From IMG/VR virus record IMGVR_UViG_2663763000_000012: DNA of 30,351 nucleotides; one strand, 5' to 3'. Positions 2,276 through 30,351 of this stretch are shown here, one piece after another. The stretch comes from a virus (Duplodnaviria; Heunggongvirae; Uroviricota; Caudoviricetes). A program made the translations under genes and the position numbers. The notes below the pieces were generated by a model. It did no database searches. It was given only the letters and a program-made list of their open reading frames with translations, and had not been told where the DNA came from. Position 1 is the first letter of the stretch. Each line of letters begins with the position of its first letter.

Positions 2276-4723
2276 TTAACCGTCATGCATCATGCTGGCA
2301 CGGGCGCGCGCACGTTTATCCCGCTCGTATTTTTCGAGCGCAGCCTGTAACTGGCGGTCAAGCTGTGTCCCCGGCGCATTACCACCCGTCAGGCTGATGT
2401 GATATTCGTTTTTACTCTGGTCCACATAAGAGCGGCCAGCCGGTGCCGTGACCGGCTGATAAGCCTGATAGCCTGCATAAGAGCTGGTCGCCGGAATATA
2501 ACCACCGCTGCCATACGTGGCGGCTTGAGTTCTGGCGGCGGTCTGGTCAAGTGTGTCTGACTCTTTGTTGATAACACCGAGTTTTTCCAGTACCCAGTCA
2601 ATACCGCTGCGCAGTTTGTTGAACGCATTAAGCGGCAGCATCAGCGCGTCAGCCAGTGCCTGCCCGAACATGACCCCCGTGTCACGGCAACTGTTCAGGG
2701 TGTCCTGAGTGGCTTTGACCGGGGCAATCAGGTTTTTAAACCACTGCCACGCGGCCTGTAACTTTTCACCCAGCCAGTCAAACACCGGCTTAAGTGGCGT
2801 GAACAGTTCCCCCACCGGCGCAAATGCCGCTTTCAGCCCTTCCACCACACCGCCAAAGAATGCGCTGACAGGCTCCCAGTATTTACGGATAAGCAACGCC
2901 CCGGCGACAATGGCGGCCACCACGGCCACAACCGGCCAGCTAATCGCTCCGATGGCGGTCATAACAGCACTGCCAACCGTCGTGAAGATTGCCCCCATTG
3001 CGCCTGCTGCCGCGATGATGGCATTGATGCCGGTGATAACCGGCCAGGCTACGAGGCCAATGGCACCGATGACACCAATCAGTGCCAGTGCACCACCGAC
3101 AATGATGCCGATGGTTGACGCCAGTGATTTGTTTTTCTGGATCCAGCCGTCGAGTTTTAACACATACTTTGTGGCCGTCTGCGTGAGCTTACGCAGCGCG
3201 CCTTCCTGCTGGTCAAACAGGTCAGTCCCCACTGCCTCATAAGCGGACTGAAACTCTTTAAAGTCACCGCCTAGGTTGTCCTGCATGATATTTACCAGCT
3301 CGGCGGTCTTCCCGTCTGAGGCTTTAAACGCAGCGGTCAGTTTGTCCAGCTTTCCGGTTGAGGCGGCAGTCATCAGCACGGCGGCGGCTGAGCTGGCCTC
3401 CTCCCCGAAAATAGTTTTCATGTATTCAGCCTGCTGGGCAGTACCGAGCCGGTTTTTCTCAAAACTGGCCTGCATTTCTTTCAGAATGGTAAATATTGGC
3501 CGGGTGTTTCCCTTGCTGTCTGAGGTTTTCACTCCAAGCTCTTTGAGTGCATCCCATGCTTTTCCCGTCGGTGCCTGCAGGCGGCTTAACACGGCACGGC
3601 TTCCCGTCCCCGCCATTGAGCCTGTGATTTTTGCATCATGCAGCGCCCCGACCATTGCGGCGGTTTCTTCAATGCTGACACCGGCATTTTTTGCCACAGG
3701 TGCGGCATAGGTCAGCGCATCGCTCATGCCGTCAAAATCGGCGGCGGTTTTGTTCATCGTCATGGAGAGAACATCCCCGATATGAGCGACCTTATCGTTT
3801 GAAAGCTGAAAGGCGGATTTCATCCCCATCAGCAGGGCGGCGTTTTCTTCCATCGTGCGGCGGTTCGCCAGCGCCATATTCAGCGTGACCGGCGTTGCCG
3901 CCTGAATGGCATCAACATCCCCACCCGCTTTCGCGATGATTATCTGTGCACCGGCCGCATCATCCGCCGAGGCGGCGGTATTGTCGCCGAGCTGGCGCGC
4001 CTGTTTGCGTAGTGCGGTCATTTCGGCGGAGTCTTTTGCCACTCCGAGCACGGCCTGCAATTCTGAGTTTTTCTGCGCAAACTCATAACCGGGCATCAGC
4101 AACTTAACTCCGGCCATCGTTCCCGCAGCAGCAATCCCCACACCGGCAGCGCCTACTGAGGCCATATTTCCGGCCAGTTCCTTTCCGGCCTGATAACGCT
4201 GTTTGACTGCGTTAAGTTTTGCCTGTTGCGCACTGACACGCGCCAGCGCGTCGCGCTGCCGGTTAAGCTGTGCGGTGGTTTCACTGATACGGTTTTTCAG
4301 TCCCTGCTCATCATGTGCAAGATTGCGGGTATTAATTCCCACAACGGCCAGTTCCCGCTGCTGGCGTTTAACGGAATCCGTCAGGCGGTTATATTTCGCC
4401 TGTAAGTCCTCCGTCGCACGCTTTGCGGATTCCAGCACTTTCACCTGAGCACGGGTCGGTCGTTCGGTATTTTTAAACTGTGTGGCAAGGGCTTCAGCTT
4501 CCTGCCGTGCCTTTTCAAGTGCATGACCAGTCACGGCAAGCTGTGCACTGGTCTTGCGAAATCCCTCAATACGGGATGCCTGACCGTTCAGCTCGCGCAG
4601 TGATTTTTGTGTTTCCCGGATATCCCCCGACAGCGACTTACTCGCTGTGCGGATGGATTTAAACGGGCGGGATGCCTGGTCAACAGCCCTGAGCAATACC
4701 TGTAATTTTACATTGTTACTCAT
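2276..4723 (-). CDS. T: Tail tape measure protein T
   Basis: 815 aa, coiled-coil-rich N-terminus, Gly/Ala-rich hydrophobic central segment, directly downstream of E/E'; size matches P2 gpT. Confidence 0.9.
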   Translation of the reverse strand: MSNNVKLQVLLRAVDQASRPFKSIRTASKSLSGDIRETQKSLRELNGQASRIEGFRKTSAQLAVTGHALEKARQEAEALATQFKNTERPTRAQVKVLESAKRATEDLQAKYNRLTDSVKRQQRELAVVGINTRNLAHDEQGLKNRISETTAQLNRQRDALARVSAQQAKLNAVKQRYQAGKELAGNMASVGAAGVGIAAAGTMAGVKLLMPGYEFAQKNSELQAVLGVAKDSAEMTALRKQARQLGDNTAASADDAAGAQIIIAKAGGDVDAIQAATPVTLNMALANRRTMEENAALLMGMKSAFQLSNDKVAHIGDVLSMTMNKTAADFDGMSDALTYAAPVAKNAGVSIEETAAMVGALHDAKITGSMAGTGSRAVLSRLQAPTGKAWDALKELGVKTSDSKGNTRPIFTILKEMQASFEKNRLGTAQQAEYMKTIFGEEASSAAAVLMTAASTGKLDKLTAAFKASDGKTAELVNIMQDNLGGDFKEFQSAYEAVGTDLFDQQEGALRKLTQTATKYVLKLDGWIQKNKSLASTIGIIVGGALALIGVIGAIGLVAWPVITGINAIIAAAGAMGAIFTTVGSAVMTAIGAISWPVVAVVAAIVAGALLIRKYWEPVSAFFGGVVEGLKAAFAPVGELFTPLKPVFDWLGEKLQAAWQWFKNLIAPVKATQDTLNSCRDTGVMFGQALADALMLPLNAFNKLRSGIDWVLEKLGVINKESDTLDQTAARTQAATYGSGGYIPATSSYAGYQAYQPVTAPAGRSYVDQSKNEYHISLTGGNAPGTQLDRQLQAALEKYERDKRARARASMMHDG

Positions 4724-5143
4724 TCGTGTTTCCGCTTCGCCGGAGCGCCTTTTCGCGCCATGTGATGAGTTCGGTCAGGCTCATGGGATACAGTTCTGAT
4801 GGCGGCCAGTGAAATATCACTGCCACATCCGCCATCAGGTCATCGACCGAGAGATTTTTCGGAAACGTCACTGCACCGAGTTCGGCGACAAAAAACCGAC
4901 CACCTTACCGGCCAGCGCCACAAGGTCAGGCAGTTCCAGCGCGGCGACTTCCTGCTCGGTCAGCATCGGTGCCGTCATGCGCGGCAGCACCTTAATCAGT
5001 GCATCGACTTCGGAGTTTGCAACCGCAGCCAGACTGACACCGCGTAGCGTCCCGGCATTGGGTTTCATCAGCGTGACCTGTTCGATAACCTGCTCACCAC
5101 GTTTGACCGGATTGTCCAGGGTAATGACATTTTCTTTGTTCAT
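4716..5143 (-). CDS. E+E': Tail assembly chaperone E+E' produced by -1 programmed frameshift
   Basis: Slippery run GGTTTTTTG on the minus strand (plus coordinates about 4889-4897) inside E. Hand translation in the -1 frame from this site stays open to a TAA at 4716-4718, giving about 142 aa in total and overlapping the T start codon (4721-4723). Confidence 0.75.
4868..5143 (-). CDS. E: Tail assembly chaperone E (zero-frame product)
   Basis: 91 aa ORF MNKENVITLDNPVKRGEQ... between FII and T; ATG at 5141-5143; stop TGA at 4868-4870. Confidence 0.85.
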   Translation of the reverse strand: MNKENVITLDNPVKRGEQVIEQVTLMKPNAGTLRGVSLAAVANSEVDALIKVLPRMTAPMLTEQEVAALELPDLVALAGKVVGFLSPNSVQ

Positions 5144-5199
5144 GGTTTTCTCACTTCTGAATCAGGGTTAACCGGCCAGCCAGGCTGACCGGATGAAAA

Positions 5200-5718
5200 T
5201 CACAGGCCGATATTGCGGCGGTGTTGCTCCAGCCGGTCGACGCCGTTCACCTTCTCAATCATGTTGATGGTGTCAATTTCGACCAGCTCCTTACCGTCCA
5301 TCGTCAGCCGGAAATAGGTGCAGACCACTGAGATTTTCGACTCGGTGTCTTCTCCCTGTTTCCCCTCGCCGGTGTCGATTTCTTTCTGACGTCCACGCAT
5401 GACCACTTCGACGGCCACCGTTTCGCCGGTATCGTCGCGCTGGTAAGAGCCTGCAAAACGAATCGGCACGGCATCCACACCGGTTGCGGCGTAAAGCTCC
5501 CAGATAACCGAATCCGGGAAGCCACCGAGCGACCACTCCATTGACAGCGCATCGTCATCAAGGCCGAGGTCTACCGGTGCGCTGCCGTTCATCCCCGCAC
5601 CGCGATAGTTTTCGAGCTTACGGGTCAGTTTTGGTAGCGTGACGGACTTCGCGACGCCCTGATAGCTGTAGCCGTTCAGAAAGACGTTCATTAACTTGAG
5701 TTTGCGCGGCATTGCCAT
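5200..5718 (-). CDS. FII: Tail tube protein FII
   Basis: 172 aa ORF immediately downstream of FI; size and position match P2 gpFII. Confidence 0.9.
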   Translation of the reverse strand: MAMPRKLKLMNVFLNGYSYQGVAKSVTLPKLTRKLENYRGAGMNGSAPVDLGLDDDALSMEWSLGGFPDSVIWELYAATGVDAVPIRFAGSYQRDDTGETVAVEVVMRGRQKEIDTGEGKQGEDTESKISVVCTYFRLTMDGKELVEIDTINMIEKVNGVDRLEQHRRNIGL

Positions 5719-5730
5719 CGGTCAGGCTCC

Positions 5731-6831
5731 TTAATTGCTGTTAACCGAAGTGACCAGACTTGCCAGGTATCTGGAAGTAATACGCTGGCGCAGGGTCAGG
5801 TTTTCAAGAGGAGGCACCGGTGTATAGTCGTAGTCGATATACAGTTTTCCGGCCTTGAGGGTTTCCGCATCGTTGGATTCTTCGCTGAACCAGCAGGTCG
5901 CATCCACGATATAGCCGTTTGTTTTCAGCTCACGGAATTTGGCATTGATGCCGTCAACGATGTCGCGAATCAGCGTTGCGGTGATGGGCTTGTCCACCGC
6001 CCACATGTGCGCCTCAGCCATCGTGTCGGCCAGCACCTGCGCGGTGCGGGTGTAGTTTTCAAAGAGGAACAGCGGGTCATCAGAGCAGGTACGGTTACCC
6101 CAGAAGCGGAAACCGTCACGGCGAATCAGCGTAGTGACGCCTGACTCGTTAAGCAGGTCAGCATCGGTGCCGGACTCCTGCAAATCCCAGAATACAGATG
6201 CGCTGATGCCGGTAACACCGTTTACCCCGACGTTGGACAGCGTTTTATGCCAGCCCTGCTCCTGGTCGATTCTGGCACGCAGACCCAGCGCACGGGCGGT
6301 GGCATACGCGGTGGCGGTGGTACTGGTGACCGTATCCCATGCGCTGATATACCCGAAAGCGCGCAGCTTCTGACAGACTGATGCCAGTGCAACAGCCACC
6401 TCTTTGGTATCCAGCCCCGGCACACCGAGAATACGCGGTTTAACACCAGTTACCGACTCCGCCGCCAGCAGGGCTTTCAGTCCGGTGTACTGACCGTTTT
6501 CGTCGGTGGTGCCGATGATATTGGAAACGGTCTGCGCGAGCTTCGTTTCTTCGTCATCGCCGGTGCCCTCTTCCACGCGCACGACAACGGTGACCGGTTT
6601 TGACTGGTCAGCGATGGCCTGCAACGACGCCGCCAGCGTGCCTTTTTTACCGGCCTTTGCAATTGCACTCTGCACATTGGTAATCAGCACCGGTTTATTG
6701 AGGGGGAAGGTTTCCGCATCCGCATCGCTGGCCGTGCAGACCATGCCGACAATGGCAGTGGATACGGTGGAAATGACGCGGGTGCCGTCGTTAATCTCCA
6801 GCACCTGCACGCCGTGATGATAGTCACTCAT
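5731..6831 (-). CDS. FI: Contractile tail sheath protein FI
   Basis: 366 aa ORF, first gene of the FI-FII-E-T-U-D block; somewhat shorter than the P2 FI I remember (about 396 aa). Confidence 0.85.
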   Translation of the reverse strand: MSDYHHGVQVLEINDGTRVISTVSTAIVGMVCTASDADAETFPLNKPVLITNVQSAIAKAGKKGTLAASLQAIADQSKPVTVVVRVEEGTGDDEETKLAQTVSNIIGTTDENGQYTGLKALLAAESVTGVKPRILGVPGLDTKEVAVALASVCQKLRAFGYISAWDTVTSTTATAYATARALGLRARIDQEQGWHKTLSNVGVNGVTGISASVFWDLQESGTDADLLNESGVTTLIRRDGFRFWGNRTCSDDPLFLFENYTRTAQVLADTMAEAHMWAVDKPITATLIRDIVDGINAKFRELKTNGYIVDATCWFSEESNDAETLKAGKLYIDYDYTPVPPLENLTLRQRITSRYLASLVTSVNSN

Positions 6832-6890: not shown

Positions 6891-7484
6891 CTATTTGTCC
6901 CGGTTGGCTAAGGGATGACACAATTTATTCTTTGTCGCTGATGAGGGAAATTTTTTATAGAGCGTGGACAGACCAATATCAAAAATCAGTGCCACGCGTT
7001 GACGTGACTCCCCTGCAGCCAGCAAACGCCCGGCCTGCTCCCACTCACTCGTGGTGAGTTTAGGACGTCTGCCACCAATACGACCTTTGGCTCTGGCCGC
7101 TTCCAGCCCGGCCCGAGTCCGCTCGACAATGAGTTCTCGTTCCATTTCAGCCAGGGCACCCATCACATGAAAGAAAAAACGCCCCATCGGCGTGCTGGTA
7201 TCAATGGCATCCGTCAGGCTGCGAAAATTAATGCCGCGTTCGCGCAGCTCCTCAACCAGAATGACCAGATGCCGCATACTACGCCCCAGCCGGTCCAGCT
7301 TCCAGACTACCAGTGTATCCCCCTCCGATAATGTCCTGAGCAGTTTTTTCAGCCCCGGCCTGTCGGACTTCGTGCCGCTGATTTTATCCTCAAAAATCAG
7401 CTCACATCCTGCGCACTCCAGCGCGTTACGCTGCAATTCCGTATTCTGGTCATTTGTTGACACGCGGACATAGCCAATAAGCAT
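6891..7484 (-). CDS. Serine-recombinase DNA invertase (Gin/Cin/Pin/Hin family)
   Basis: N-terminus MLIGYVRVSTNDQ with the catalytic Ser motif of resolvase/invertase enzymes; C-terminal HTH region with ...STLYKKFP...; 197 aa; ATG at 7482-7484. Sits next to a tail-fibre region with oppositely oriented cassettes. Confidence 0.9.
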   Translation of the reverse strand: MLIGYVRVSTNDQNTELQRNALECAGCELIFEDKISGTKSDRPGLKKLLRTLSEGDTLVVWKLDRLGRSMRHLVILVEELRERGINFRSLTDAIDTSTPMGRFFFHVMGALAEMERELIVERTRAGLEAARAKGRIGGRRPKLTTSEWEQAGRLLAAGESRQRVALIFDIGLSTLYKKFPSSATKNKLCHPLANRDK

Positions 7485-7539
7485 GATGGATCCCCTGAAT
7501 AAAAACCGGGGATGATGCCAGTTAGCCGTAATCTCTGCA

Positions 7540-7565
7540 TTTTCTTAAACGTTGGTTTGGGGGAA
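7540..7565. other. Left crossover site (gix/cix-like 26-bp dyad) of the invertible tail-fibre segment
   Basis: TTTTCTTAAACGTTGGTTTGGGGGAA, imperfect dyad symmetry with AAAC/GTTT-containing half-sites; 20 of 26 positions match the inverted copy at 9345-9370, including a 10-nt identical core TTGGTTTGGG. Confidence 0.55.
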
Positions 7566-7901
7566 TTGGCTCTGGCTGGCGCAACAACCGGCGCTATGTT
7601 GGTGAATGGGTATGTAGCAATTCCATTAATTATTTCTGGCGTTCGGAGACCACTTATTATCCAGTGGGGAGTGGGGCAGTTTGGGGGAAGTCTGGGGGAT
7701 GATGCGGGATATTTAAACAATTTCCCTTTCGCTTTTCCGTCGGCGTGCTACGTGATGGTTGCCAGCCACGTGGGGCATACACCTTCGGGTGCCGGAATAC
7801 TATCTGCTTCCGCAATCACAAAAAGCGGCTTTCGTGGTTTTTCCAGCGTAGCGACTGCCGCAAATCCTGTATCGGGCTGTTATGTTGCTATAGGAGGGTG
7901 A
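7566..7901 (+). other. Promoterless alternative tail-fibre C-terminal cassette (Sv'-like), currently in the non-expressed orientation
   Basis: Open frame on the + strand running straight through the left crossover site (...NVGLGELALAG...), with no credible start of its own. The GLGE junction motif is shared with tail fibre H (...AYLGLGEG...) at the right crossover site. Stop at 7899-7901. Confidence 0.6.
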
Positions 7902-7902
7902 T

Positions 7903-8337
7903 GTGTTTTTTAGTCCATCTTTAAATATTTTTGTGAATCCTGCGCTTAAGGATGACTACATCAATGTAAATTCATGGCCAGATGATGCTGTTGAAGTTGA
8001 TGAGCAGGTGTATATTGAGTTTTCCGGATTACCGCCGAAAGGAAAAATCCGTATCGCTGGGGAAAATGGTTTTCCTGCATGGTCTGAAATTCCACCACCA
8101 ACGCATGAGGAACAGATTGCCGCAGCCGAATTGAAAAAACAGCAATTGATTAATCAGTCCAACGAATATATGAATACCAAGCAATGGCCTGGTAAAGCGG
8201 CTATTGGTCGTCTGAAAGGTGAGGAACTGGCGCAATATAATTTGTGGCTGGATTATCTGGACGCACTGGAACTGGTTGATACCTCCAGTGCTCCAGATAT
8301 TGAATGGCCTACGCCTCCGGCAGTTCAGGCCAGATGA
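7903..8337 (+). CDS. Alternative tail fibre assembly chaperone (U'-like)
   Basis: 144 aa, GTG start at 7903 preceded by AGGAGG (7892-7897); C-terminus ...DTSSAPDIEWPTPP... parallels the C-terminus of the minus-strand chaperone (8309-8902, ...DTSTAPDVIWPELP...). The two genes converge and overlap at their 3' ends. Confidence 0.7.
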   Translation: MFFSPSLNIFVNPALKDDYINVNSWPDDAVEVDEQVYIEFSGLPPKGKIRIAGENGFPAWSEIPPPTHEEQIAAAELKKQQLINQSNEYMNTKQWPGKAAIGRLKGEELAQYNLWLDYLDALELVDTSSAPDIEWPTPPAVQAR

Positions 8338-8902
8338 CATCCGGCGCGGTGCTCGTATCTGTTGCCGTCACCGCGTCAATGTAATCAAGCACGGCGTTAA
8401 GCCGGGTGGTTTCTGCCTGCGTCAGCTTCCGCCCGGCCTGTAATTTCAGCTGAATCAGACTGATGGAAGCCATTGCAGCATCAATCAGTGACTGGCGCTG
8501 TGCTTCTGCCGCTTCTACTGCGGCACCGTGTTGTGCCTCAGTATCTGTCACCCATTTCTCACCATCCCATTTATCATATGGCGTTAACGGTGAAAGCGTG
8601 ACATAACCGTTTTTGATGGCACCGATATAATCCACTGTAACAGCAGCACCATTTTCGATTGAGTAAACAGTCTCATTGCGATGGTCTTCTTCATGGCTCC
8701 ATCCCTTACCTGTAAATACTGCCACTCTTCCCGGAATGTTTTCGCCAGGGTCAATACCAGTGGAACAGGCGGGCATACTTACGCCAGTATTAATATATTC
8801 ATCAGACCAGCCCGTATACTCAGATGTTTCAGCATCATAATAAAAACAACGCATATCGCCCGGCACTGTAGCCAGCCCATTTTCATCAAAAACAGGTTTC
8901 AT
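8309..8902 (-). CDS. G: Tail fibre assembly chaperone (G/U-like), expressed orientation
   Basis: 197 aa, ATG at 8900-8902 overlapping the H stop; SD-like GGTGAGGG upstream; conserved C-terminal DTS.AP motif shared with the alternative copy. Confidence 0.85.
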   Translation of the reverse strand: MKPVFDENGLATVPGDMRCFYYDAETSEYTGWSDEYINTGVSMPACSTGIDPGENIPGRVAVFTGKGWSHEEDHRNETVYSIENGAAVTVDYIGAIKNGYVTLSPLTPYDKWDGEKWVTDTEAQHGAAVEAAEAQRQSLIDAAMASISLIQLKLQAGRKLTQAETTRLNAVLDYIDAVTATDTSTAPDVIWPELPEA

Positions 8903-10185
8903 TATTTAGCCCTCACCAGAAAGTTAAATGCAATATTTCGCGGTCTGACAGCAACAAAATTCACACCATCACCCACAGAGTTACTGGTGAAATTAAATCG
9001 TGAAAATCCTGGCTGATTTCCGGCGATGCCATCATGAAAGTTAATTGCGTGTCCCGCACCTCCGCCTATATTCCCGGCAAACTGAGAAAAGTTTGTAGCT
9101 TCCTGCCAGCTTAATAATTCGCGACCACCATCGGCACCTCGCCCGTCATCCCAGATACGAATGAAATCACCGCGGGCTTCAGGTAATACCAGTGAAGGAA
9201 ACACTTTCGCCAGCACAGGGTAATCAGAGGCAGAAAATTTCGCCCCGTTGAACTTCAAAAACACCATACTGGACCAGCTGTCGATTACAGTATTTGGCAT
9301 TGCAGCGGACGGCCAGAAGAACGGAACGCCAATAGCTGGAGCACCTTCTCCCAAACCAAGGTATGCGAGAAGACCAGCTACATCCTTTCCACTCAAATGA
9401 GTCAGCGTCTCATCCAGTGGCTGCTTACCTGACAGCGCATTGTTAATGGTGGTACTGAATTTCGGGTCATTGTTGATAGCTGCGGCAATTTCTTTCAGTG
9501 TGTCCAGCGTGTCAGGGGCACCGTTAATCAGAGCGGTAATAGCGGCCTGTACAAACGCAGTGGTCGCAATCCGCGTGGTGTTATTTCCTGCGGCAGGCGT
9601 CGGCGCTTTTGGTTCTCCGGTAAATGTCGGATTATGTTTCTGTGCATACTGGGTATGAGGATCCTGTGCGGCAATATGGTTTCTCATCTGGTCATCCACA
9701 TACAGCCTTAACTCCAGGACTTCATCATCCACGTATTTACGGGTCGCCAGTACCACCGACGGGTCGATTTTCAGCGTGATGGCTTCGGTATTCGTGACAA
9801 CCAGAATCATGCGGATAGTCTGGGTACGACCACTGCCTTCCTGCAACTGCGGTTTGTACGTTTCCGGGCAGTTCGCCACCGCAATGAGTACGCCTTCATC
9901 ATCATAAAGCCCAATCTCACGGATCCAGAATCCGCCCTCGTTCTCAGGGATGATTTGCTCCGCAATAATCTGGCTCTGGTTGTTCGGGTCAACACTCAGA
10001 AGATTCAGCGGCGCGATGCGTTTCTGGTTAATAAGTTTTGTCTGTGCCGGGTCTGGTGTCGGCAAGACACCATTTGCATCACCAACGGCCATTTGCGTCA
10101 GATTCAGCTTACTGCCGAGCATCGTCGCGTTAGCCAGCCGTGCCGCGCCCTGATTAGTCAGAATGGCGTAGTATTTCACTGTCAT
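8902..10185 (-). CDS. H: Tail fibre protein H (constant N-terminus fused to the currently selected variable C-terminus)
   Basis: 427 aa; N-terminus MTVKYYAILTNQGAARLANA...MAVGDANG resembles the conserved P2 H / Mu S N-terminal region; start overlaps the I stop (ATGA). The crossover site lies inside the coding sequence at about codon 265. Confidence 0.85.
   Translation of the reverse strand: MTVKYYAILTNQGAARLANATMLGSKLNLTQMAVGDANGVLPTPDPAQTKLINQKRIAPLNLLSVDPNNQSQIIAEQIIPENEGGFWIREIGLYDDEGVLIAVANCPETYKPQLQEGSGRTQTIRMILVVTNTEAITLKIDPSVVLATRKYVDDEVLELRLYVDDQMRNHIAAQDPHTQYAQKHNPTFTGEPKAPTPAAGNNTTRIATTAFVQAAITALINGAPDTLDTLKEIAAAINNDPKFSTTINNALSGKQPLDETLTHLSGKDVAGLLAYLGLGEGAPAIGVPFFWPSAAMPNTVIDSWSSMVFLKFNGAKFSASDYPVLAKVFPSLVLPEARGDFIRIWDDGRGADGGRELLSWQEATNFSQFAGNIGGGAGHAINFHDGIAGNQPGFSRFNFTSNSVGDGVNFVAVRPRNIAFNFLVRAK
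9345..9370. other. Right crossover site (gix/cix-like), inside tail fibre gene H
   Basis: Minus-strand sequence TTCTCGCATACCTTGGTTTGGGAGAA; inverted relative to the left site; half-sites TTCTCGCATACC and TTCTCCCAAACC show dyad symmetry. Confidence 0.55.
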
Positions 10186-22268: not shown

Positions 22269-24101
22269 TCAAACAGAGCCCTGTTCAAAAACAGTATCAA
22301 AATATGGTAGGAGAGGATAAGCACACAGAAAGAAAATCAGGATGCATGCATATGTCGTTGTTTCATCGTAACAAGCATTAGTATATAAATTACCATGTGC
22401 TAATTTATGTCTTAAGGTTGCCCCACTCTTTCTGTTAAAAAGAACATCGATAGTCAAAACAAGATTTTTAGAAAAGATACTTTCCAAATCATCTCTGCAT
22501 TTATCTAGAAGCTGAGAAATACTTGTTGACTCCTCTAATCCCTTATCCAAATATCTAGTAGCATCCTTTCCGCTAAGCTCATAATAATAACGAACCATAC
22601 CTTCCATTTGTGGTATTAAAAGATAAGCTGCACTGATGTAATCTCCCTGCCATAATTTGTAAAAGCCCAAATTAAAAATCTCCCTAAACTCCGGCTTGAC
22701 AATTGGACTAGTTGTAACCAATTTAACGAATGTTGACAACGTCAAGCCATGTTCTTGAGAAAGTACATAGCGAGCAGGTTCAAAGACACCGTTTACAAAA
22801 ATCTTATGAGTAATCTCGAAATTTCTTAGATATTGATCAATAACAACATCATCACTCATATATTTTTTATTATCCAACGGCGGGATTGTATATATCTTAC
22901 GCCCACTCTCATCATTAATTTCTGTTCCAACAAAACTAGAGAATAAACTTTTTTCTGATAATCTTAAAACTTGTTCCCTCATGCTTTCAATATTTTCAAT
23001 CGGTGTTTCACTCATTAAAACTTTGAATATATCGGGCAAAGAACGCCCCGTCAGTTTTTTTTCACTTTCAGCAACCAAGTCACTAATATCAATAGAATGG
23101 CTTAAAGTGACATATTCACTCCTTACTTCTTCTCTCAAATTAGCAAGTTGTTCCTTTAAATCTTCTATCTGTTGGCTATCACCACCGTACTGTCTTAATT
23201 CAGAGATAGCTGTTCTTAACCAAGAGATCTTACCCATATTATCAGGTCGTTCTGTTGCAACTTTAATAGTAATATTTGCAGATGCCAGTTTACATCTCTT
23301 GGCACGTTCATACTCACCATTTTTTTCATAAATAACTGCACTTGTCATATAAAGTGATTTTACAGCATCATAATATTTTTTATCTTTATGCTGCTCAGCC
23401 ATCTTCTCAGCATTTTCCGCATACTGCAGATTATACCCATCAAAATCACGCACCATAAACCAAGTCAAATTATTGAAACCTTCAAAGATTAATCTTTCAT
23501 TTTGAATACTATAAAGAGAATGAATGGCATTTTTAATCGCCATGTTTCCTTCTGATTTTCTAGGGTAGACCATTTTATTAATGTGCAAAGCCCTAGCAAT
23601 ATAATCACGAGCAAAAATAAAGCAATTTAAATCACTTTCATCCATGCTTTCGTTTTTTATTATTAGCTTTTCAATTGCTATATTTAGCATTTCAGCATAG
23701 GAATCAATTGCTTTAATTGCCACGTCTTTATTTTTCCGATTATTACACCAAACAACATCATATATTCTTGATAACAAAAATGGATTGGTTATTTTTTGAG
23801 AAACATATAAAAGACAGTCATTCACCTGCTCATCAAAATCTTCAGGCAATATTGATCTTTTATTACCCCAAATCATTTGGGGTTCAAATGATGGAGTGTT
23901 GTTAACAACTTGCAAATTGAAACTATATAGCATACCAAAAAGAGATGCTAATTTTTTCTCTTTGGGGTTTTCTGATGACTCAGCAATCCCATCCAGATAT
24001 TTTTTTATTTTATGTGCATGAAATGTAACTGGTATATGCATAAAAACACTATAATCTAGTGTTTCAAGCTCTTCCCTTGTAAGAACAAAGATATCATTCA
24101 T
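22269..24101 (-). CDS. Large AT-rich cargo protein of unknown function; candidate anti-phage defence/abortive-infection effector with a C-terminal HEPN-like R-x4-H motif
   Basis: Continuous ORF (645 codons from a TTG at 24204-24206; 610 aa from the ATG at 24099-24101, which has an AAGGTG Shine-Dalgarno 7 nt upstream). Strongly AT-rich compared with the flanking prophage. Occupies the tin/old accessory locus between cos and gene A. Motif LRHKLAHG at 22395-22412; no Walker A motif seen. Confidence 0.75.
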   Translation of the reverse strand: MNDIFVLTREELETLDYSVFMHIPVTFHAHKIKKYLDGIAESSENPKEKKLASLFGMLYSFNLQVVNNTPSFEPQMIWGNKRSILPEDFDEQVNDCLLYVSQKITNPFLLSRIYDVVWCNNRKNKDVAIKAIDSYAEMLNIAIEKLIIKNESMDESDLNCFIFARDYIARALHINKMVYPRKSEGNMAIKNAIHSLYSIQNERLIFEGFNNLTWFMVRDFDGYNLQYAENAEKMAEQHKDKKYYDAVKSLYMTSAVIYEKNGEYERAKRCKLASANITIKVATERPDNMGKISWLRTAISELRQYGGDSQQIEDLKEQLANLREEVRSEYVTLSHSIDISDLVAESEKKLTGRSLPDIFKVLMSETPIENIESMREQVLRLSEKSLFSSFVGTEINDESGRKIYTIPPLDNKKYMSDDVVIDQYLRNFEITHKIFVNGVFEPARYVLSQEHGLTLSTFVKLVTTSPIVKPEFREIFNLGFYKLWQGDYISAAYLLIPQMEGMVRYYYELSGKDATRYLDKGLEESTSISQLLDKCRDDLESIFSKNLVLTIDVLFNRKSGATLRHKLAHGNLYTNACYDETTTYACILIFFLCAYPLLPYFDTVFEQGSV

Positions 24102-24117
24102 CGTTTTCACCTTTTTC

Positions 24118-24148
24118 AGTATAAATTTGCACACATTATTATTAGCAA
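24118..24148 (-). promoter_or_regulatory. Putative sigma70-like promoter for the cargo gene
   Basis: On the minus strand, TTGCTA then a 19-nt spacer then TATACT, just upstream of the ATG at 24101. The spacer is longer than optimal, so this is weak. Confidence 0.3.
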
Positions 24149-24220
24149 CATAACTATCAATAGTTAACACATGCAGATAAACAGCAATTTTACTATTATG
24201 CAACAAATTAAATCAGATGT

Positions 24221-28318: not shown

Positions 28319-28566
28319 ACCCTCCGGCTTTTCAGAAAGGTCAGAGCCTTTTTTAACGGACTCTGTTTTTTGGTGCGGATAATGATTCCCTTACGCCCCT
28401 TACCGTGGGTAATGGTGAAGTCAATCGCCCTGGGGCTTTCGTTACGCAATAACTGAGCAATACAACGAGGCTCGTTCATCCTTTCCACCTTAAGCCGCAC
28501 GGCCATGTCTTGATTTGCTGTAACTAATGCGATTTTTCCAGTCATGCCATTCTGTCGGAGCTTCAT
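28309..28566 (-). CDS. Hypothetical small early protein (orf78-like position)
   Basis: ATG at 28564-28566 (the ORF-track start at 28569 is TTG); basic C-terminus; overlaps the 3' end of the cox-like gene, so the true start may be further downstream. Confidence 0.45.
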   Translation of the reverse strand: MKLRQNGMTGKIALVTANQDMAVRLKVERMNEPRCIAQLLRNESPRAIDFTITHGKGRKGIIIRTKKQSPLKKALTFLKSRRVWK

Positions 28567-28846
28567 CAACTAGTTGGGCTGCGTACTTGTCCCACTCACG
28601 GCGATTAATCCATAACTCAGCATGACCGCCCGGCTTTAATGGGTCCGTCATATAAAAGGCTGGTAACTTGCCTGCTTTCGCCATTTCAGCAACAGCACGA
28701 GGCGTCTTACCGATGTAAAGAGCAAATCCCTCTTTCGAGAGCAAATCCGACGGTGCGGCTGCAAGTTTGATGTCACATTTTTTACTTTTTGTGAGATCAG
28801 ATACTTTTTCTCCAACATCGTTATTCATTTCTGATCCAATACTCAT
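28490..28846 (-). CDS. cox: Cox-like excisionase / early-operon regulator
   Basis: Segment ...FALYIGKTPRAVAEMAKAGKLPAFYMTDPLKPGGHAELW... resembles the P2 Cox helix-turn-helix region as I recall it (IGK..AV..M..GKLP....MTDP); first gene of the early operon, divergent from C; ATG at 28844-28846 with GAGGA upstream. The N-terminus is longer than P2 Cox, so the start is uncertain. Confidence 0.65.
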   Translation of the reverse strand: MSIGSEMNNDVGEKVSDLTKSKKCDIKLAAAPSDLLSKEGFALYIGKTPRAVAEMAKAGKLPAFYMTDPLKPGGHAELWINRREWDKYAAQLVDEAPTEWHDWKNRISYSKSRHGRAA

Positions 28847-28950
28847 TTTGATATCCTCAACTTTGGTGCCATTCAACCAGAGCTATTTGAAGCCGCTCTG
28901 CGTTGTTCTGGTGTGTCGCATACAACATAAATTACGAGATACGACAATTC
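28847..28950. promoter_or_regulatory. Immunity switch region (divergent Pe/Pc promoters and operators) between cox and C
   Basis: 104-bp intergenic region between divergent cox-like and C genes; contains direct heptamer repeats ATACAAC (28919-28925) and ATACGAC (28939-28945) spaced 20 bp apart. Confidence 0.45.
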
Positions 28951-29262
28951 ATGTCAAATACACAAATCACATCTCAAGCAGAGAAACTCGCACTTATTCG
29001 GGAGTCAGAAAGAATGACAAGGAAGCAAGTTGCTGAATTAACTGGAATTAACTACAACACCTATGCTGGATATGAGCAGGGAAAAGTAAAGATGTCTTTT
29101 GACGCAGGCATGAAATTTTTCAAGCCTGAAAGATTTCGCAAGTACCGTGACTGGTTCATGTTTGATGAAACTGATCCCGCTGGCGGACAAATAGCCCCGG
29201 CGCTCGCGCACATTGGGCAAGACTCAACAACCTTGCACCACTCAGACCAAAAGACTGGCTGA
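28951..29262 (+). CDS. C: Immunity repressor C
   Basis: ATG at 28951 (the ORF-track start at 28903 is TTG); MSNTQITSQAEKLALIRESERMTRKQVAELTGINYNTYAGYEQGK... has an HTH and the C-terminal GQIAPALAH motif I recall from P2 C; about 103 aa. Confidence 0.85.
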   Translation: MSNTQITSQAEKLALIRESERMTRKQVAELTGINYNTYAGYEQGKVKMSFDAGMKFFKPERFRKYRDWFMFDETDPAGGQIAPALAHIGQDSTTLHHSDQKTG

Positions 29263-29355
29263 CGATTTATTCAGCATATGTATGCAGTAAATGTACGAAA
29301 GAAAATTGCATTAATTTTCAAGTAGTAGAAGTAAACAGCGTCATCGGAGGGCTTT

Positions 29356-30351
29356 ATGTCTATTAAAAAGCTCGATGATGGTCGTTATGAAGTGGACGTC
29401 AGACCGCAGGGTGCAGATGGAAAACGTATCAGGCGGAAATTTAAAACTAAAGGTGAAGCTCAAGCATTCGAACGTCATGTACTGGTTAACTACCACAACA
29501 AAGAGTGGCTGGAGAAGCCAGCCGACCGCCGAACTCTTACAGAGTTGTTAGGCAGATGGTGGATATATCACGGAAAATCACATGAGCGTGGAGATATTGA
29601 ACGGGGGCGTTTGACGACAATAATCGCCAAATTTGCAGAAATGGTAGTGTCCAGAGCTGACCAGCTAACAAAGAAAACGATAACTGATTATCGCGTTGTA
29701 ATGATGAACGATGGTCTAAAACCAGCCAGCGTAAATCGGCATCTGGCAATAATGAGCGGGATGTTCACCAAGTTAATTGACGCCGGTGAATACCATTCTC
29801 ACAACCCGTTCCGTGAGGTTAAGCGATTACGTGAAGCTGTTACAGAAATGGCTTTTTTGTCCAGTGAAGAGATTACACGGCTGTTATCCATGCTCGATGG
29901 TGATGAATTAAATGCGACTCTGGTCTGCCTTTCTACTGGTGGACGCTGGAGTGAAGTGTCTAATTTAAAAGCTGAACACATCATTAACCAGATGGTTACG
30001 TTTATGAAAACTAAAAACGGAAAGCGCAGGACAATTCCCGTTTCGCAGGACCTGATTAAACGGATCAAGACCAAAAATTCAGGCAGGCTTTTTAATGCCA
30101 GTTACTACAAAGTGCGCAACGCTCTCAGGGAAGTAAAACCCGATTTACCTGACGGACAGGCAGTGCATGTTTTGAGGCATACATTTGCCACACATTTTAT
30201 AATGAATGGAGGTAACATAATCACATTGCAGCGCATCCTGGGTCATTCTAACATTCAGCAAACTATGACCTACGCACACTTTGCACCGGATTTCTTACAA
30301 GATGCAGTGACTCTTAACCCGGTGTCAGGAATGTCCATAATGCGTCCATAA
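29356..30351 (+). CDS. int: Tyrosine integrase (P2 Int family)
   Basis: 331 aa, ATG preceded by GGAGG; catalytic-type motifs TGGRWSE, HVLRHTFATH and TMTYAHF (R...HxxR...Y); the stop TAA is the last codon of the window. Confidence 0.92.
   Translation: MSIKKLDDGRYEVDVRPQGADGKRIRRKFKTKGEAQAFERHVLVNYHNKEWLEKPADRRTLTELLGRWWIYHGKSHERGDIERGRLTTIIAKFAEMVVSRADQLTKKTITDYRVVMMNDGLKPASVNRHLAIMSGMFTKLIDAGEYHSHNPFREVKRLREAVTEMAFLSSEEITRLLSMLDGDELNATLVCLSTGGRWSEVSNLKAEHIINQMVTFMKTKNGKRRTIPVSQDLIKRIKTKNSGRLFNASYYKVRNALREVKPDLPDGQAVHVLRHTFATHFIMNGGNIITLQRILGHSNIQQTMTYAHFAPDFLQDAVTLNPVSGMSIMRP

What the first reader, a model, noticed from the sequence alone, without database searches (positions are those of the whole stretch)
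4716..5143. Conserved -1 programmed ribosomal frameshift producing E+E' tail chaperone
Gene E (91 aa) contains the slippery run GGTTTTTTG on the minus strand (plus 4889-4897). Shifting -1 after the Phe codon gives an uninterrupted 58-codon extension ending at TAA 4716-4718, which overlaps the first codons of tape-measure gene T, for a total of about 142 aa. This matches the known E/E' arrangement of P2 and the general tail-assembly-chaperone frameshift rule, and it explains a coding region the ORF track misses.
Basis: partly seen in the sequence, partly recalled or inferred. Interest (0 to 1): 0.4.

Follow-up and report, generated by a model that had tools for sequence, protein, structure and literature searches.

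The report
Phage P2 E/E+E' tail-chaperone frameshift
This is the well-known programmed -1 ribosomal frameshift of phage P2 that makes two tail-assembly chaperones (E and the longer E+E') from one start codon, found here in a P2-type prophage almost identical to P2, so it is real but ordinary.

Summary
On the minus strand, gene E (5143-4868, 91 aa) reads GGT TTT TTG at 4897-4889. The canonical heptamer is T_TTT_TTG (4895-4889). The -1 frame is open from 4904 to TAA 4718-4716, which overlaps the tape-measure gene T (ATG 4723). The product is 142 aa.

The 428-nt E+E' segment differs from phage P2 (AF063097) at one base (S29N). That record annotates 'E+E', -1 frameshift, essential tail protein'.

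Supporting evidence:
- E matches Pfam PF10109 (tail assembly chaperone). The -1 extension matches PF06528 (P2 GpE, E = 1.6e-22).
- In 18 diverse relatives (37-77 % protein identity; hosts from Escherichia to Burkholderia, Vibrio and Acidovorax), an in-register slippery heptamer always lies inside the E/-1 overlap. With the window, the 19 loci show T_TTT_TTG 15 times, and T_TTT_TTT, T_TTT_TTC, A_AAT_TTT and G_GGA_AAG once each.
- The -1 product is conserved in all 19.

I found no supported stimulatory RNA element.

One correction: P2's reference protein has Leu at the junction (GFL|VAE, tandem slip). The length is the same, and I could reach no data that settle residue 85.

Verdict: interpretation supported, already known, low interest.

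The parts
4868..5143 (-). Gene E, zero-frame product (91 aa), a tail assembly chaperone
   Evidence: ORF list and translation. Pfam PF10109 Phage_TAC_7, E = 2.6e-12, 47 bits against a cut-off of 25. PHROG 103 'tail', 2.6e-45. One residue differs from P2 gpE (N29 vs S29).
4889..4895 (-). Slippery heptamer T_TTT_TTG (X_XXY_YYZ in the E frame; E codons 84 Phe and 85 Leu, preceded by the T of GGT)
   Evidence: Sequence read directly. It is the only in-register heptamer within the 37-nt E/-1 overlap. 15 of the 19 loci compared carry the same heptamer in the same register; the other four carry other canonical heptamers. It corresponds to the annotated frameshift site of P2.
4716..4892 (-). E' segment: -1 frame coding extension (58 codons counted from TTT 4892-4890, or 57 from GTC 4889-4887) plus stop TAA 4718-4716
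   Evidence: Translation shows no stop. Pfam PF06528 Phage_P2_GpE, E = 1.6e-22. PHROG 1756 'tail', 2e-29. Identical in sequence to P2 E'. The motif DDLMADIAVIFHWPPSE...WRE.A..RSG is conserved in the -1 frame of all 19 loci.
4716..5143 (-). Composite E+E' coding region (142 aa) read with one -1 shift
   Evidence: The joined protein hits both PF10109 (residues 7-85) and PF06528 (residues 104-139). It differs from P2 AAD03292.1 / O64312 only at S29N. The exact GFF-junction version is in NCBI as RJK13013.1.
4905..4907 (-). TAA in the -1 frame: the upstream limit of the window in which a shift can yield E+E'
   Evidence: The -1 frame is open only from 4904, giving a 37-nt overlap. This matches the '37 nt back into E' quoted from Christie 2002 in PMC3931495.
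2276..4723 (-). Gene T, tape measure protein (815 aa). Its ATG 4723-4721 overlaps the end of E' (ATGAGTAA)
   Evidence: ORF list. Pfam PF10145 PhageMin_Tail, 2.4e-45. P2 annotation gpT.
5200..5718 (-). Gene FII, tail tube protein, immediately upstream of E (synteny: tube - chaperone pair - tape measure)
   Evidence: Pfam PF04985 Phage_tube, 2.3e-60. P2 annotation gpFII.

Best explanation
The region is the E/E+E' tail-assembly-chaperone gene pair of a P2-type (Peduovirus) prophage.

Mechanism:
- Most ribosomes translate E in frame and stop at TGA 4870-4868, giving the 91-aa gpE.
- A minority slip back one base on T_TTT_TTG (4895-4889). The P-site tRNA-Phe re-pairs from UUU to UUU, and the A-site tRNA-Leu from UUG to UUU.
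- Those ribosomes continue in the -1 frame to TAA 4718-4716, giving the 142-aa gpE+E', which shares its first 84-85 residues with gpE.

Function, by analogy with lambda gpG/gpGT: the shared E part binds the tape measure protein T, and the E' domain recruits the tube protein so that the tail tube polymerises around T. The frameshift fixes the E : E+E' ratio.

What is shown and what is inferred:
- Shown here: the sequence anatomy, near-identity to P2, family membership of both parts, and conservation of the heptamer and the -1 product.
- Taken from the P2 record and secondary citations: that the 142-aa protein is made by a -1 frameshift and is essential.
- Inferred: the tandem-slip details, the binding partners, and a low shift efficiency.
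For: - Anatomy: E frame, heptamer register, open -1 frame and overlap with T.
- Identity to P2: 99.5 % over 651 nt and one substitution within E+E'. P2 annotates CDS E+E' (join, -1 frameshift, essential) and the shift site.
- Reference protein: the product matches AAD03292.1 / O64312 'Tail assembly protein E'' apart from S29N.
- Families: Pfam PF10109 on E and PF06528 on the -1 extension, and PHROG 'tail' families for both.
- Synteny: tube gene (PF04985), then E/E', then tape measure (PF10145).
- Distribution: 401 of 418 phage records that match E+E' by tblastn cover at least 80 % of it, and nearly all the records listed do so as two pieces.
- Conservation: all 19 diverse loci have a canonical in-register heptamer inside the overlap and a -1 extension of 32-54 codons past the E stop. 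The residue before Phe changes (Gly, Thr, Leu, Ser, Asp) while the T at its third codon position is kept.
- Non-homopolymer heptamers in two relatives (G_GGA_AAG in PHL101, A_AAT_TTT in P88_4B11) argue for ribosomal rather than polymerase slippage.
- Stability of the run: 80 of 80 near-identical IMG/VR loci keep GGTTTTTTGTC. Of 1583 E. coli records matching the T6 form, 660 match at 99 % or better. None of 1538 records reaches 99 % to a T4-fused form.
- Literature: PMC3091744, PMC3931495 and PMC5009743.
Against: - Nothing in the sequence contradicts this explanation.
- I could not read the primary experimental paper (Christie 2002; not held). The experimental basis therefore rests on the GenBank annotation and two secondary descriptions.
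- No stimulatory element was found. In E. coli reporter assays U_UUU_UUG is not listed among the efficient heptamers, and heptamers without stimulators gave only 2- to 10-fold over a background of about 0.05 % (PMC4066793). How enough E+E' is made is therefore not explained.
- This prophage's sheath gene FI carries a 30-aa in-frame deletion. The tail module may no longer be functional as a whole in this host.
Confidence: 0.93

Rival explanations
1. E' is a separate small gene translated from its own start (GTG 4871-4869, or the conserved ATG 4835-4833 of the ...DDLMAD... motif). It would give a free peptide of about 38-51 aa rather than a fusion with E. This is how many automatic annotations write it.
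For: - The mechanical ORF list contains 4716..4871, 51 aa, GTG start.
- RefSeq E. coli genomes and several phage records annotate a stand-alone 'GpE family phage tail protein' next to 'phage tail assembly protein'.
- The Pfam PF06528 model is only 37 positions long.
Against: - No good Shine-Dalgarno sequence precedes GTG 4871. The literature states that E' lacks a ribosome-binding site (PMC3931495).
- Candidate start codons are not conserved. 186 has no start codon between the heptamer and the Met of LMAD. That Met is replaced by Ala, Ile or Trp codons in the Ralstonia, Acidovorax, PHL101 and Vibrio relatives.
- In all 19 loci the -1 frame stays open back to the heptamer, and the product is similar from its first residues (FFxAE.G).
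- In several loci a -1 stop lies 0-9 nt upstream of the heptamer, so the open frame begins just where the shift site is.
Confidence: 0.04
2. The long product comes from transcriptional slippage. RNA polymerase adds one extra U in the U6 run, so a subset of mRNAs carries E and E' in one frame (junction GFF|VAE). The ribosome does not slip.
For: - The site is a homopolymer run (T6). Smp131 has T7 in the same place.
- Sharma 2014 notes that U7 and A7 runs are avoided in all frames, possibly because of transcriptional slippage. The same work does not list U_UUU_UUG among the efficient ribosomal heptamers in E. coli.
Against: - By my background knowledge, efficient transcriptional slippage in bacteria generally needs runs of about 8-9 or more. 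Here the run is 6, and it does not lengthen across most of the family.
- The run keeps the X_XXY_YYZ register in every relative. Two relatives use non-homopolymeric heptamers at the equivalent place (G_GGA_AAG, A_AAT_TTT), which polymerase slippage cannot explain.
- The literature and the P2 record describe a translational frameshift.
Confidence: 0.03

Closest known systems
Bacteriophage P2 genes E and E+E' (GenBank AF063097 / NC_001895; AAD03291.1, AAD03292.1; UniProt O64312; Christie et al. 2002, J Bacteriol 184:6522)
   Same: This is essentially the same locus.
- 427 of 428 nt are identical across E+E'.
- The heptamer T_TTT_TTG is the same, and so is the 37-nt overlap.
- The product sizes are the same: 91 aa and 142 aa.
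- The 8-nt overlap of the E' stop with the T start is the same.
- The gene order FI-FII-E/E'-T-U-D is the same.
   Different: - One amino-acid change (N29 here, S29 in P2).
- The surrounding prophage differs from P2 in its tail-fibre, immunity, integrase and cargo regions, and has a 30-aa deletion in FI.
- None of these differences touches the frameshift cassette.
Phage lambda gpG / gpGT (-1 frameshift at G_GGA_AAG; Levin, Hendrix & Casjens 1993; Xu, Hendrix & Duda 2004, 2013, 2014)
   Same: - Same logic and position: two chaperone products from one start, encoded between the major tail (tube) gene and the tape measure gene.
[quoted passage not shown]
- Neither product is in the virion (PMC5009743).
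- One P2-family relative, Mannheimia phage PHL101, even uses lambda's heptamer G_GGA_AAG.
   Different: - No detectable sequence similarity; the Pfam families are different.
- The heptamer is different (T_TTT_TTG).
- P2 has a contractile tail, so the E' partner is presumably the tube protein FII rather than lambda gpV. This is an inference.
E. coli dnaX and IS911/IS3 -1 frameshift signals (A_AAA_AAG with an upstream Shine-Dalgarno-like element and a downstream hairpin or pseudoknot)
   Same: - A -1 tandem slip on an X_XXY_YYZ heptamer in E. coli.
- An SD-like AAGGTGG lies just 5' of the P2 heptamer (4906-4900).
   Different: - The SD-like element is 4 nt from the heptamer, not the 10-14 nt known (from background knowledge) to stimulate -1 shifting. 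It also encodes conserved residues (K/E-V-V/I).
- No stable structure begins 5-9 nt downstream.
- There is no Rfam frameshift-element match.
- U_UUU_UUG is not among the efficient E. coli heptamers (PMC4066793).

Membership tests
P2 gpE / gpE+E' tail assembly chaperone pair (Peduoviridae) | The short ORF belongs to the E/41/14 tail-assembly-chaperone family (Pfam PF10109) | tested here: met
   E = 2.6e-12, 47 bits against a cut-off of 25, residues 7-85. PHROG 103, 2.6e-45.
P2 gpE / gpE+E' tail assembly chaperone pair (Peduoviridae) | The -1 frame extension encodes the P2 GpE (E') domain (Pfam PF06528) | tested here: met
   E = 1.6e-22, 79 bits against a cut-off of 23. Identical to P2 E'.
P2 gpE / gpE+E' tail assembly chaperone pair (Peduoviridae) | T6G slippery sequence in X_XXY_YYZ register inside the E/-1 overlap | tested here: met
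   T_TTT_TTG at 4895-4889 is the only in-register heptamer in the 37-nt overlap. The same motif and register occur in 15 of 19 diverse loci.
P2 gpE / gpE+E' tail assembly chaperone pair (Peduoviridae) | E' has no translation initiation signal of its own | tested here: inconclusive
   A GTG exists at 4871 with no clear Shine-Dalgarno sequence. Candidate starts are not conserved among relatives. The literature says there is no ribosome-binding site. Initiation cannot be excluded from sequence alone.
P2 gpE / gpE+E' tail assembly chaperone pair (Peduoviridae) | A 142-aa fusion protein is actually made by the -1 shift, and both E and E+E' are essential for tails | not testable with these tools
   Stated for P2 in the GenBank record ('-1 frameshift; essential tail protein') and in PMC3091744 and PMC3931495. 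The primary paper is not held.
General tail-assembly-chaperone frameshift rule (Xu, Hendrix & Duda 2004) | Two overlapping ORFs lie between the major tail/tube gene and the tape measure gene, with the second in the -1 frame | tested here: met
   FII (PF04985) 5718-5200, E/E' 5143-4716 and T (PF10145) 4723-2276 are all on the minus strand.
Stimulated -1 frameshift signals of the dnaX / IS911 type | Downstream hairpin or pseudoknot starting about 5-9 nt after the heptamer, and/or an SD-like element 10-14 nt upstream | tested here: not met
   - The nearest downstream stem starts 2 nt after the heptamer, and the local fold has z = 0.09.
- The strong hairpin (4838-4796, -25 kcal/mol, z = -4.0) lies 51 nt downstream and shows no compensatory changes.
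- The SD-like AAGGTGG is 4 nt upstream.
- No Rfam match.
Transcriptional-slippage recoding sites | A homopolymer long enough for polymerase slippage, needed irrespective of codon register | tested here: not met
   The run is T6. The register is kept in all relatives, and two relatives use non-homopolymeric heptamers. No RNA data are available to test this directly.

The most novel reading that the evidence does not exclude
The P2/186 clade may carry unrecognised cis elements that tune the shift or the coupled expression of T. There are two candidates.

- An SD-like AAGGTGG lies 4 nt upstream of the heptamer. SD-like GAGGT or GGTGG motifs sit 4-9 nt upstream in about 14 of the 19 loci, but they also encode the conserved K/E-V-V residues.
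- A strongly folding 43-nt hairpin lies inside E' (4838-4796; -25 kcal/mol; no shuffle of 200 folds as well).

This would explain how a heptamer that is weak in E. coli reporter assays yields enough E+E'. A related possibility is that T, whose ATG overlaps the E' stop, is translated mainly by ribosomes that have frameshifted, which would tie tape-measure dosage to E+E'.

My evidence does not exclude either idea. It gives no positive support beyond the folding z-score. The hairpin decays with divergence and shows no compensatory substitutions.
Probability: 0.06. Interest if true: 0.3.

Novelty: already known. Interest (0 to 1): 0.07.

Why it matters
It matters for annotation, not for discovery.

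- The 142-aa E+E' protein is routinely missed or split by gene callers. RefSeq E. coli genomes mostly list 'phage tail assembly protein' plus a separate 'GpE family phage tail protein'.
- The locus is present in about 29 % of complete E. coli genomes (1580 of 5426).
- Recognising it gives the correct proteome of a very common prophage family.
- It is a clean textbook example of the tail-chaperone frameshift rule.
- Nothing here changes what is known about recoding.

Tried and rejected
1. Downstream stimulatory structure.
- The 99 nt after the heptamer fold better than shuffles (z = -3.4).
- The signal comes from a hairpin at 4838-4796, 51 nt downstream (z = -4.0).
- Across relatives its 10-bp outer stem is kept only where the codons are nearly identical (186, Yersinia, Kp4886-2) and falls to 2-8 of 10 pairs elsewhere.
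- The variants seen are one-sided (G to A breaking a pair; A to G giving G-U). No compensatory change was found.
- Rejected as a frameshift stimulator; noted only.

2. Terminator-like hit at 4916-4895 followed by the T run.
- The stem has 4 G-C and 4 G-U pairs and is absent from the minimum-energy fold (z = 0.09).
- It is weaker in the 186 sequence shown (read by eye). Rejected.

3. Rfam scan of 4400-5400 at E <= 1. Only two chance-level hits on the opposite strand.

4. PDB sequence search with E+E'. No solved relative at E <= 1.

5. The search for related loci with E on IMG/VR. This returned 80 near-identical loci, useless for covariation, although all keep GGTTTTTTGTC. I switched to tblastn against the phage collection to obtain divergent loci.

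6. Fused single-ORF E-E' proteins of 141-144 aa in Logan assemblies, with T4 instead of T6.
- I tested whether this is a real natural variant.
- None of 1538 E. coli records carrying the locus reaches 99 % identity to the T4 form.
- These are most likely homopolymer errors or rare defective copies.

7. The primary paper PMC135442 could not be read.

8. The +1 frame is open for only 9 codons after the E stop.

9. Within-window control scan. No other gene has a heptamer plus a long -1 extension.
Full report
**1. The observation**

I read 4500-5400 on the minus strand and listed ORFs.

- Gene E runs from ATG 5143 to TGA 4870-4868 and encodes 91 aa.
- Since 5143 - 4897 = 246 = 82 x 3, position 4897 starts codon 83. 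The E frame therefore reads GGT(4897-95) TTT(4894-92) TTG(4891-89) TCG CCG AAC TCG GTG CAG TGA.
The canonical X_XXY_YYZ heptamer within it is T_TTT_TTG (4895-4889).
- Translating the -1 frame from 4895 gives FFVAELGAVTFPKNLSVDDLMADVAVIFHWPPSELYPMSLTELITWREKALRRSGNTNE*, with the stop at TAA 4718-4716.
- From TTT 4892-4890 this is 58 sense codons, and 84 + 58 = 142 aa.
- T (2276-4723, 815 aa) starts at ATG 4723-4721, so the E' stop lies within T codons 2-3 (ATGAGTAA).
- The -1 frame is closed upstream by TAA 4907-4905. A productive shift must therefore occur in the 37-nt overlap 4904-4868, where T_TTT_TTG is the only in-register heptamer.

All numbers in the finding are confirmed.

**2. Is it more than chance?**

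The heptamer alone is not unusual. There are 16 TTTTTTG in the window against 9.2 +/- 3.0 expected, and 2 of 100 shuffles reach 16. A 50-60 codon open frame is also not improbable by itself.

The decisive points are these:
- The -1 product matches Pfam PF06528 (Phage_P2_GpE) at E = 1.6e-22, and E matches PF10109 (Phage_TAC_7) at E = 2.6e-12. The joined 142-aa protein carries both. PHROGs places both parts in 'tail' families.
- The neighbours are the tail tube gene (PF04985) upstream and the tape measure gene (PF10145) downstream.
- Among 36 other putative genes in the window, none combines an in-register heptamer with a -1 extension of at least 30 codons. E itself was displaced from that greedy gene set by a longer antisense ORF, 4809-5171(+), which I take to be spurious.

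**3. What it is**

The 651 nt around the site are 99.5 % identical to bacteriophage P2, AF063097 / NC_001895. Within the 428-nt E+E' segment a single base differs (AAT vs AGT, giving N29 vs S29), and E' is identical.

The P2 record annotates CDS E (gpE, essential tail protein) and CDS E+E' (a join; 'shares amino terminus with gpE; -1 frameshift; essential tail protein'). It also has a misc_feature 'site of -1 translational frameshift'.

Whole-window comparison shows a P2-type prophage in reverse orientation. The late genes are 95-98 % identical to P2, with replacement modules elsewhere.

**4. Literature**

- The primary paper (Christie, Temple, Bartlett & Goodwin 2002, J Bacteriol 184:6522) is not held.
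- PMC3091744 states that in P2 the -1 shift occurs at TTTTTTG and produces the 91-aa E and the 142-aa E+E' from one start. It also says no downstream hairpin is present.
- PMC3931495 restates that E' overlaps the start of T, lacks a ribosome-binding site, extends 37 nt back into E in the -1 frame, and is reached via a T6G slippery sequence. My measurements match all of this.
- PMC5009743 summarises the lambda G/GT paradigm and cites the P2 case.

**5. Independent comparative test**

tblastn with E+E' found 418 phage records. In 401 of them one place covers at least 80 % of the query, and nearly all the records listed match as two pieces. I fetched 18 divergent loci with 37-77 % protein identity:
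- enterobacterial: 186, Yersinia vB_YenM_06.16-2, SEN5, P88_4B11 and four Klebsiella phages;
- Burkholderia PhiBP82.2 and KS5, and Ralstonia;
- Stenotrophomonas Smp131 and Pseudomonas Sirocco;
- Halomonas, Arsenophonus and Aeromonas;
- Vibrio MAR, Acidovorax and Mannheimia PHL101.

In every one a canonical heptamer lies in register inside the E/-1 overlap, and the -1 frame continues 32-54 codons past the E stop.

Counts over the 19 loci, including the window:

| Heptamer | Loci |
|---|---|
| T_TTT_TTG | 15 |
| T_TTT_TTT | 1 (Smp131) |
| T_TTT_TTC | 1 (Vibrio MAR) |
| A_AAT_TTT | 1 (P88_4B11) |
| G_GGA_AAG | 1 (PHL101; lambda's own heptamer) |

Further points from the same loci:
- The residue before Phe varies (Gly, Thr, Leu, Ser, Asp), yet the third-position T is kept.
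- The distance from the heptamer to the E stop varies from 25 to 73 nt.
- All -1 products share ...(V/I)(D/E)D.(M)AD(I/L)A.(I/V)FHW.P......L.EL..WRE.A..RSG.
- 80 of 80 near-identical IMG/VR loci keep GGTTTTTTGTC.
- In complete E. coli genomes the locus occurs in 1580 of 5426 genomes, and 660 records are at least 99 % identical to the T6 form.

**6. How it works**

The best-supported mechanism is plain tandem -1 slippage on T_TTT_TTG. tRNA-Phe re-pairs UUU to UUU in the P site, and tRNA-Leu re-pairs UUG to UUU in the A site. A minority of ribosomes continue in the -1 frame.

Role of the products, by analogy with lambda G/GT (PMC5009743):
- E and the E part of E+E' coat the tape measure protein.
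- The E' domain recruits the tube protein.
- The shift sets the ratio of the two.

The anatomy and conservation are shown here. Production and essentiality are taken from the P2 record and secondary citations. The binding partners and the efficiency are inferred.

I found no stimulator:
- There is no Rfam match.
- The 56 nt around the site fold no better than shuffles (z = 0.09).
- The SD-like AAGGTGG (4906-4900) is only 4 nt from the heptamer and encodes the conserved K-V-V.
- The strong hairpin at 4838-4796 (-25.2 kcal/mol, z = -4.0) lies 51 nt downstream. It is kept only in close relatives and shows no compensatory substitution.

In E. coli reporter work, U_UUU_UUG is not among the efficient heptamers. 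Unstimulated heptamers gave only 2- to 10-fold over a background of about 0.05 % (PMC4066793). The expected yield is therefore low, as with lambda GT. How much E+E' is needed remains open to me.

**7. Junction detail**

| Source | Junction | Implied event |
|---|---|---|
| P2 reference AAD03292.1 / NP_046780.1 / UniProt O64312; phage Wphi gpE+E' (P0002) | ...KVVGFL\|VAELG... | tandem slip after Leu85 |

Both forms are 142 aa. Residue 85 would discriminate between the events in the last column. I could access no data that settle it.

**8. Rivals**

- Independent initiation of E' (GTG 4871 or ATG 4835). There is no Shine-Dalgarno sequence, and candidate starts are not conserved: 186 has none before the Met, and the Met is Ala, Ile or Trp in four relatives. 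The -1 frame and its similarity also reach back to the heptamer in all loci.
- Transcriptional slippage on T6. The run is short, its register is conserved, and two relatives use non-homopolymeric heptamers.
- Chance ORF. Excluded by the Pfam match and the conservation.

**9. Comparison with known systems and novelty**

This is the P2 E/E+E' cassette itself, with one amino-acid change. It is a member of the general tail-assembly-chaperone frameshift class of Xu, Hendrix & Duda (2004). It works like lambda G/GT without sequence similarity. It lacks the SD-plus-hairpin stimulators of dnaX and IS911.

Novelty: already known. Interest is low. The value lies in correct annotation of a protein that gene callers usually split.

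**10. Things seen in passing**

- Tail sheath gene FI (5731-6831, minus strand) is 366 aa instead of 396. An in-frame 90-nt deletion between 8-bp direct repeats (CGCATGGG) removes P2 residues 163-192. The phage records and the E. coli genomes listed all carry the 90 nt.
- A serine invertase (6891-7484, minus strand) sits next to opposed tail-fibre C-terminus and assembly cassettes. These are bounded by inverted crossover-like sites at about 7540-7565 and 9347-9372. This is an invertible host-range switch that P2 lacks.
- A 645-aa DUF7380/DUF4209 protein matching PADLOC PDC-S39 (2e-83) sits at the old/tin hotspot.
- The immunity region and integrase differ from P2.
- An intergenic hairpin lies between FII and E, where phage 186 annotates a partial terminator.
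- Logan assemblies contain T4-fused E-E' ORFs that have no counterpart in complete genomes.

Noticed in passing
window 5731-6831 (-), junction near 6336-6343: Tail sheath gene FI is 366 aa instead of P2's 396. An in-frame 90-nt deletion between two 8-bp direct repeats (CGCATGGG) removes P2 residues 163-192. The phage records and complete E. coli genomes listed for the junction query all matched it as two pieces spanning 291 nt, so they carry the 90 nt (78 phage records and 1621 genomes matched in all). The prophage may have a defective sheath, or the assembly may be wrong.
   Followed up: partly
window 6891-10185 (invertase 6891-7484 -; cassettes 7512-7901 +, 7903-8337 +, 8309-8902 -; fibre 8902-10185 -; sites about 7540-7565 + and 9372-9347 -): A Hin/Gin/Pin-type serine invertase (PF00239 + HTH_7) lies next to two opposed sets of tail-fibre C-terminus and tail-fibre-assembly genes. 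Inverted crossover-like sites sharing ACnTTGGTTTGGGrGAA lie about 1.8 kb apart, one of them inside the fibre gene. This looks like a Mu G-segment or P1 C-segment style invertible host-range switch. It replaces P2's H C-terminus, G and fun(Z).
   Followed up: partly
window 22269-24206 (-): A 645-aa cargo gene (Pfam DUF7380, weak DUF4209) matches the PADLOC candidate defence family PDC-S39 at 2e-83. It occupies the hotspot next to cos where P2 carries old and tin.
   Followed up: partly
window 28490-30351: The immunity and integration module is not P2's. It has a Cox-like 128-aa protein (PF10743), a 119-aa HTH repressor candidate, and a 331-aa integrase only about 70 % identical in DNA to P2 int. 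The integrase stop codon coincides with the last base of the window.
   Followed up: no
window 4796-4838 (-): A strong hairpin lies inside the E' coding sequence (CUGAUGGCGG...CCGCCAUCAG plus an inner 6-bp stem; -25.2 kcal/mol, z = -4.0, 0 of 200 shuffles). It is 51 nt 3' of the heptamer and overlaps the conserved LMAD...WPPSE codons. It is kept in 186, Yersinia and Kp4886-2 but decays in distant relatives, with no compensatory change.
   Followed up: yes
window about 5165-5192 (-), between FII stop and E start: A 9-bp G+C-rich hairpin (CCGGUCAGC...GCUGGCCGG) sits in the 56-nt FII-E spacer and is not followed by a U run (z = -2.3). Phage 186 annotates a 'partial terminator tI' between the homologous genes. 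It may lower expression of E, T, U and D relative to sheath and tube.
   Followed up: no
L082-L088 (Logan assemblies; e.g. L083 1501-1935, L088 712-1137): Some short-read-archive assemblies carry GGTTTTG (T4) instead of GGTTTTTTG, which gives a single fused E-E' ORF of 141-144 aa (P0007, P0009, P0017, P0020, P0022). All P0022 contigs come from one run series (SRR233845xx-846xx). None of 1538 E. coli records carrying the locus reaches 99 % identity to the T4 form. Homopolymer error or rare defective copies are the likely causes.
   Followed up: partly
window 4809-5171 (+): A 120-aa GTG-start ORF lies antisense to gene E and is longer than E itself. It has no support and is probably spurious. 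It can displace E in length-based gene picking, as it did in my control scan.
   Followed up: no
window 4899-4907 (-): A Shine-Dalgarno-like UAAGGUGGU ends 4 nt 5' of the slippery heptamer. Similar GAGGT or GGTGG motifs sit 4-9 nt upstream in about 14 of the 19 loci, but they also encode the conserved K/E-V-V/I residues. A role in ribosome pausing cannot be separated from protein constraint.
   Followed up: partly
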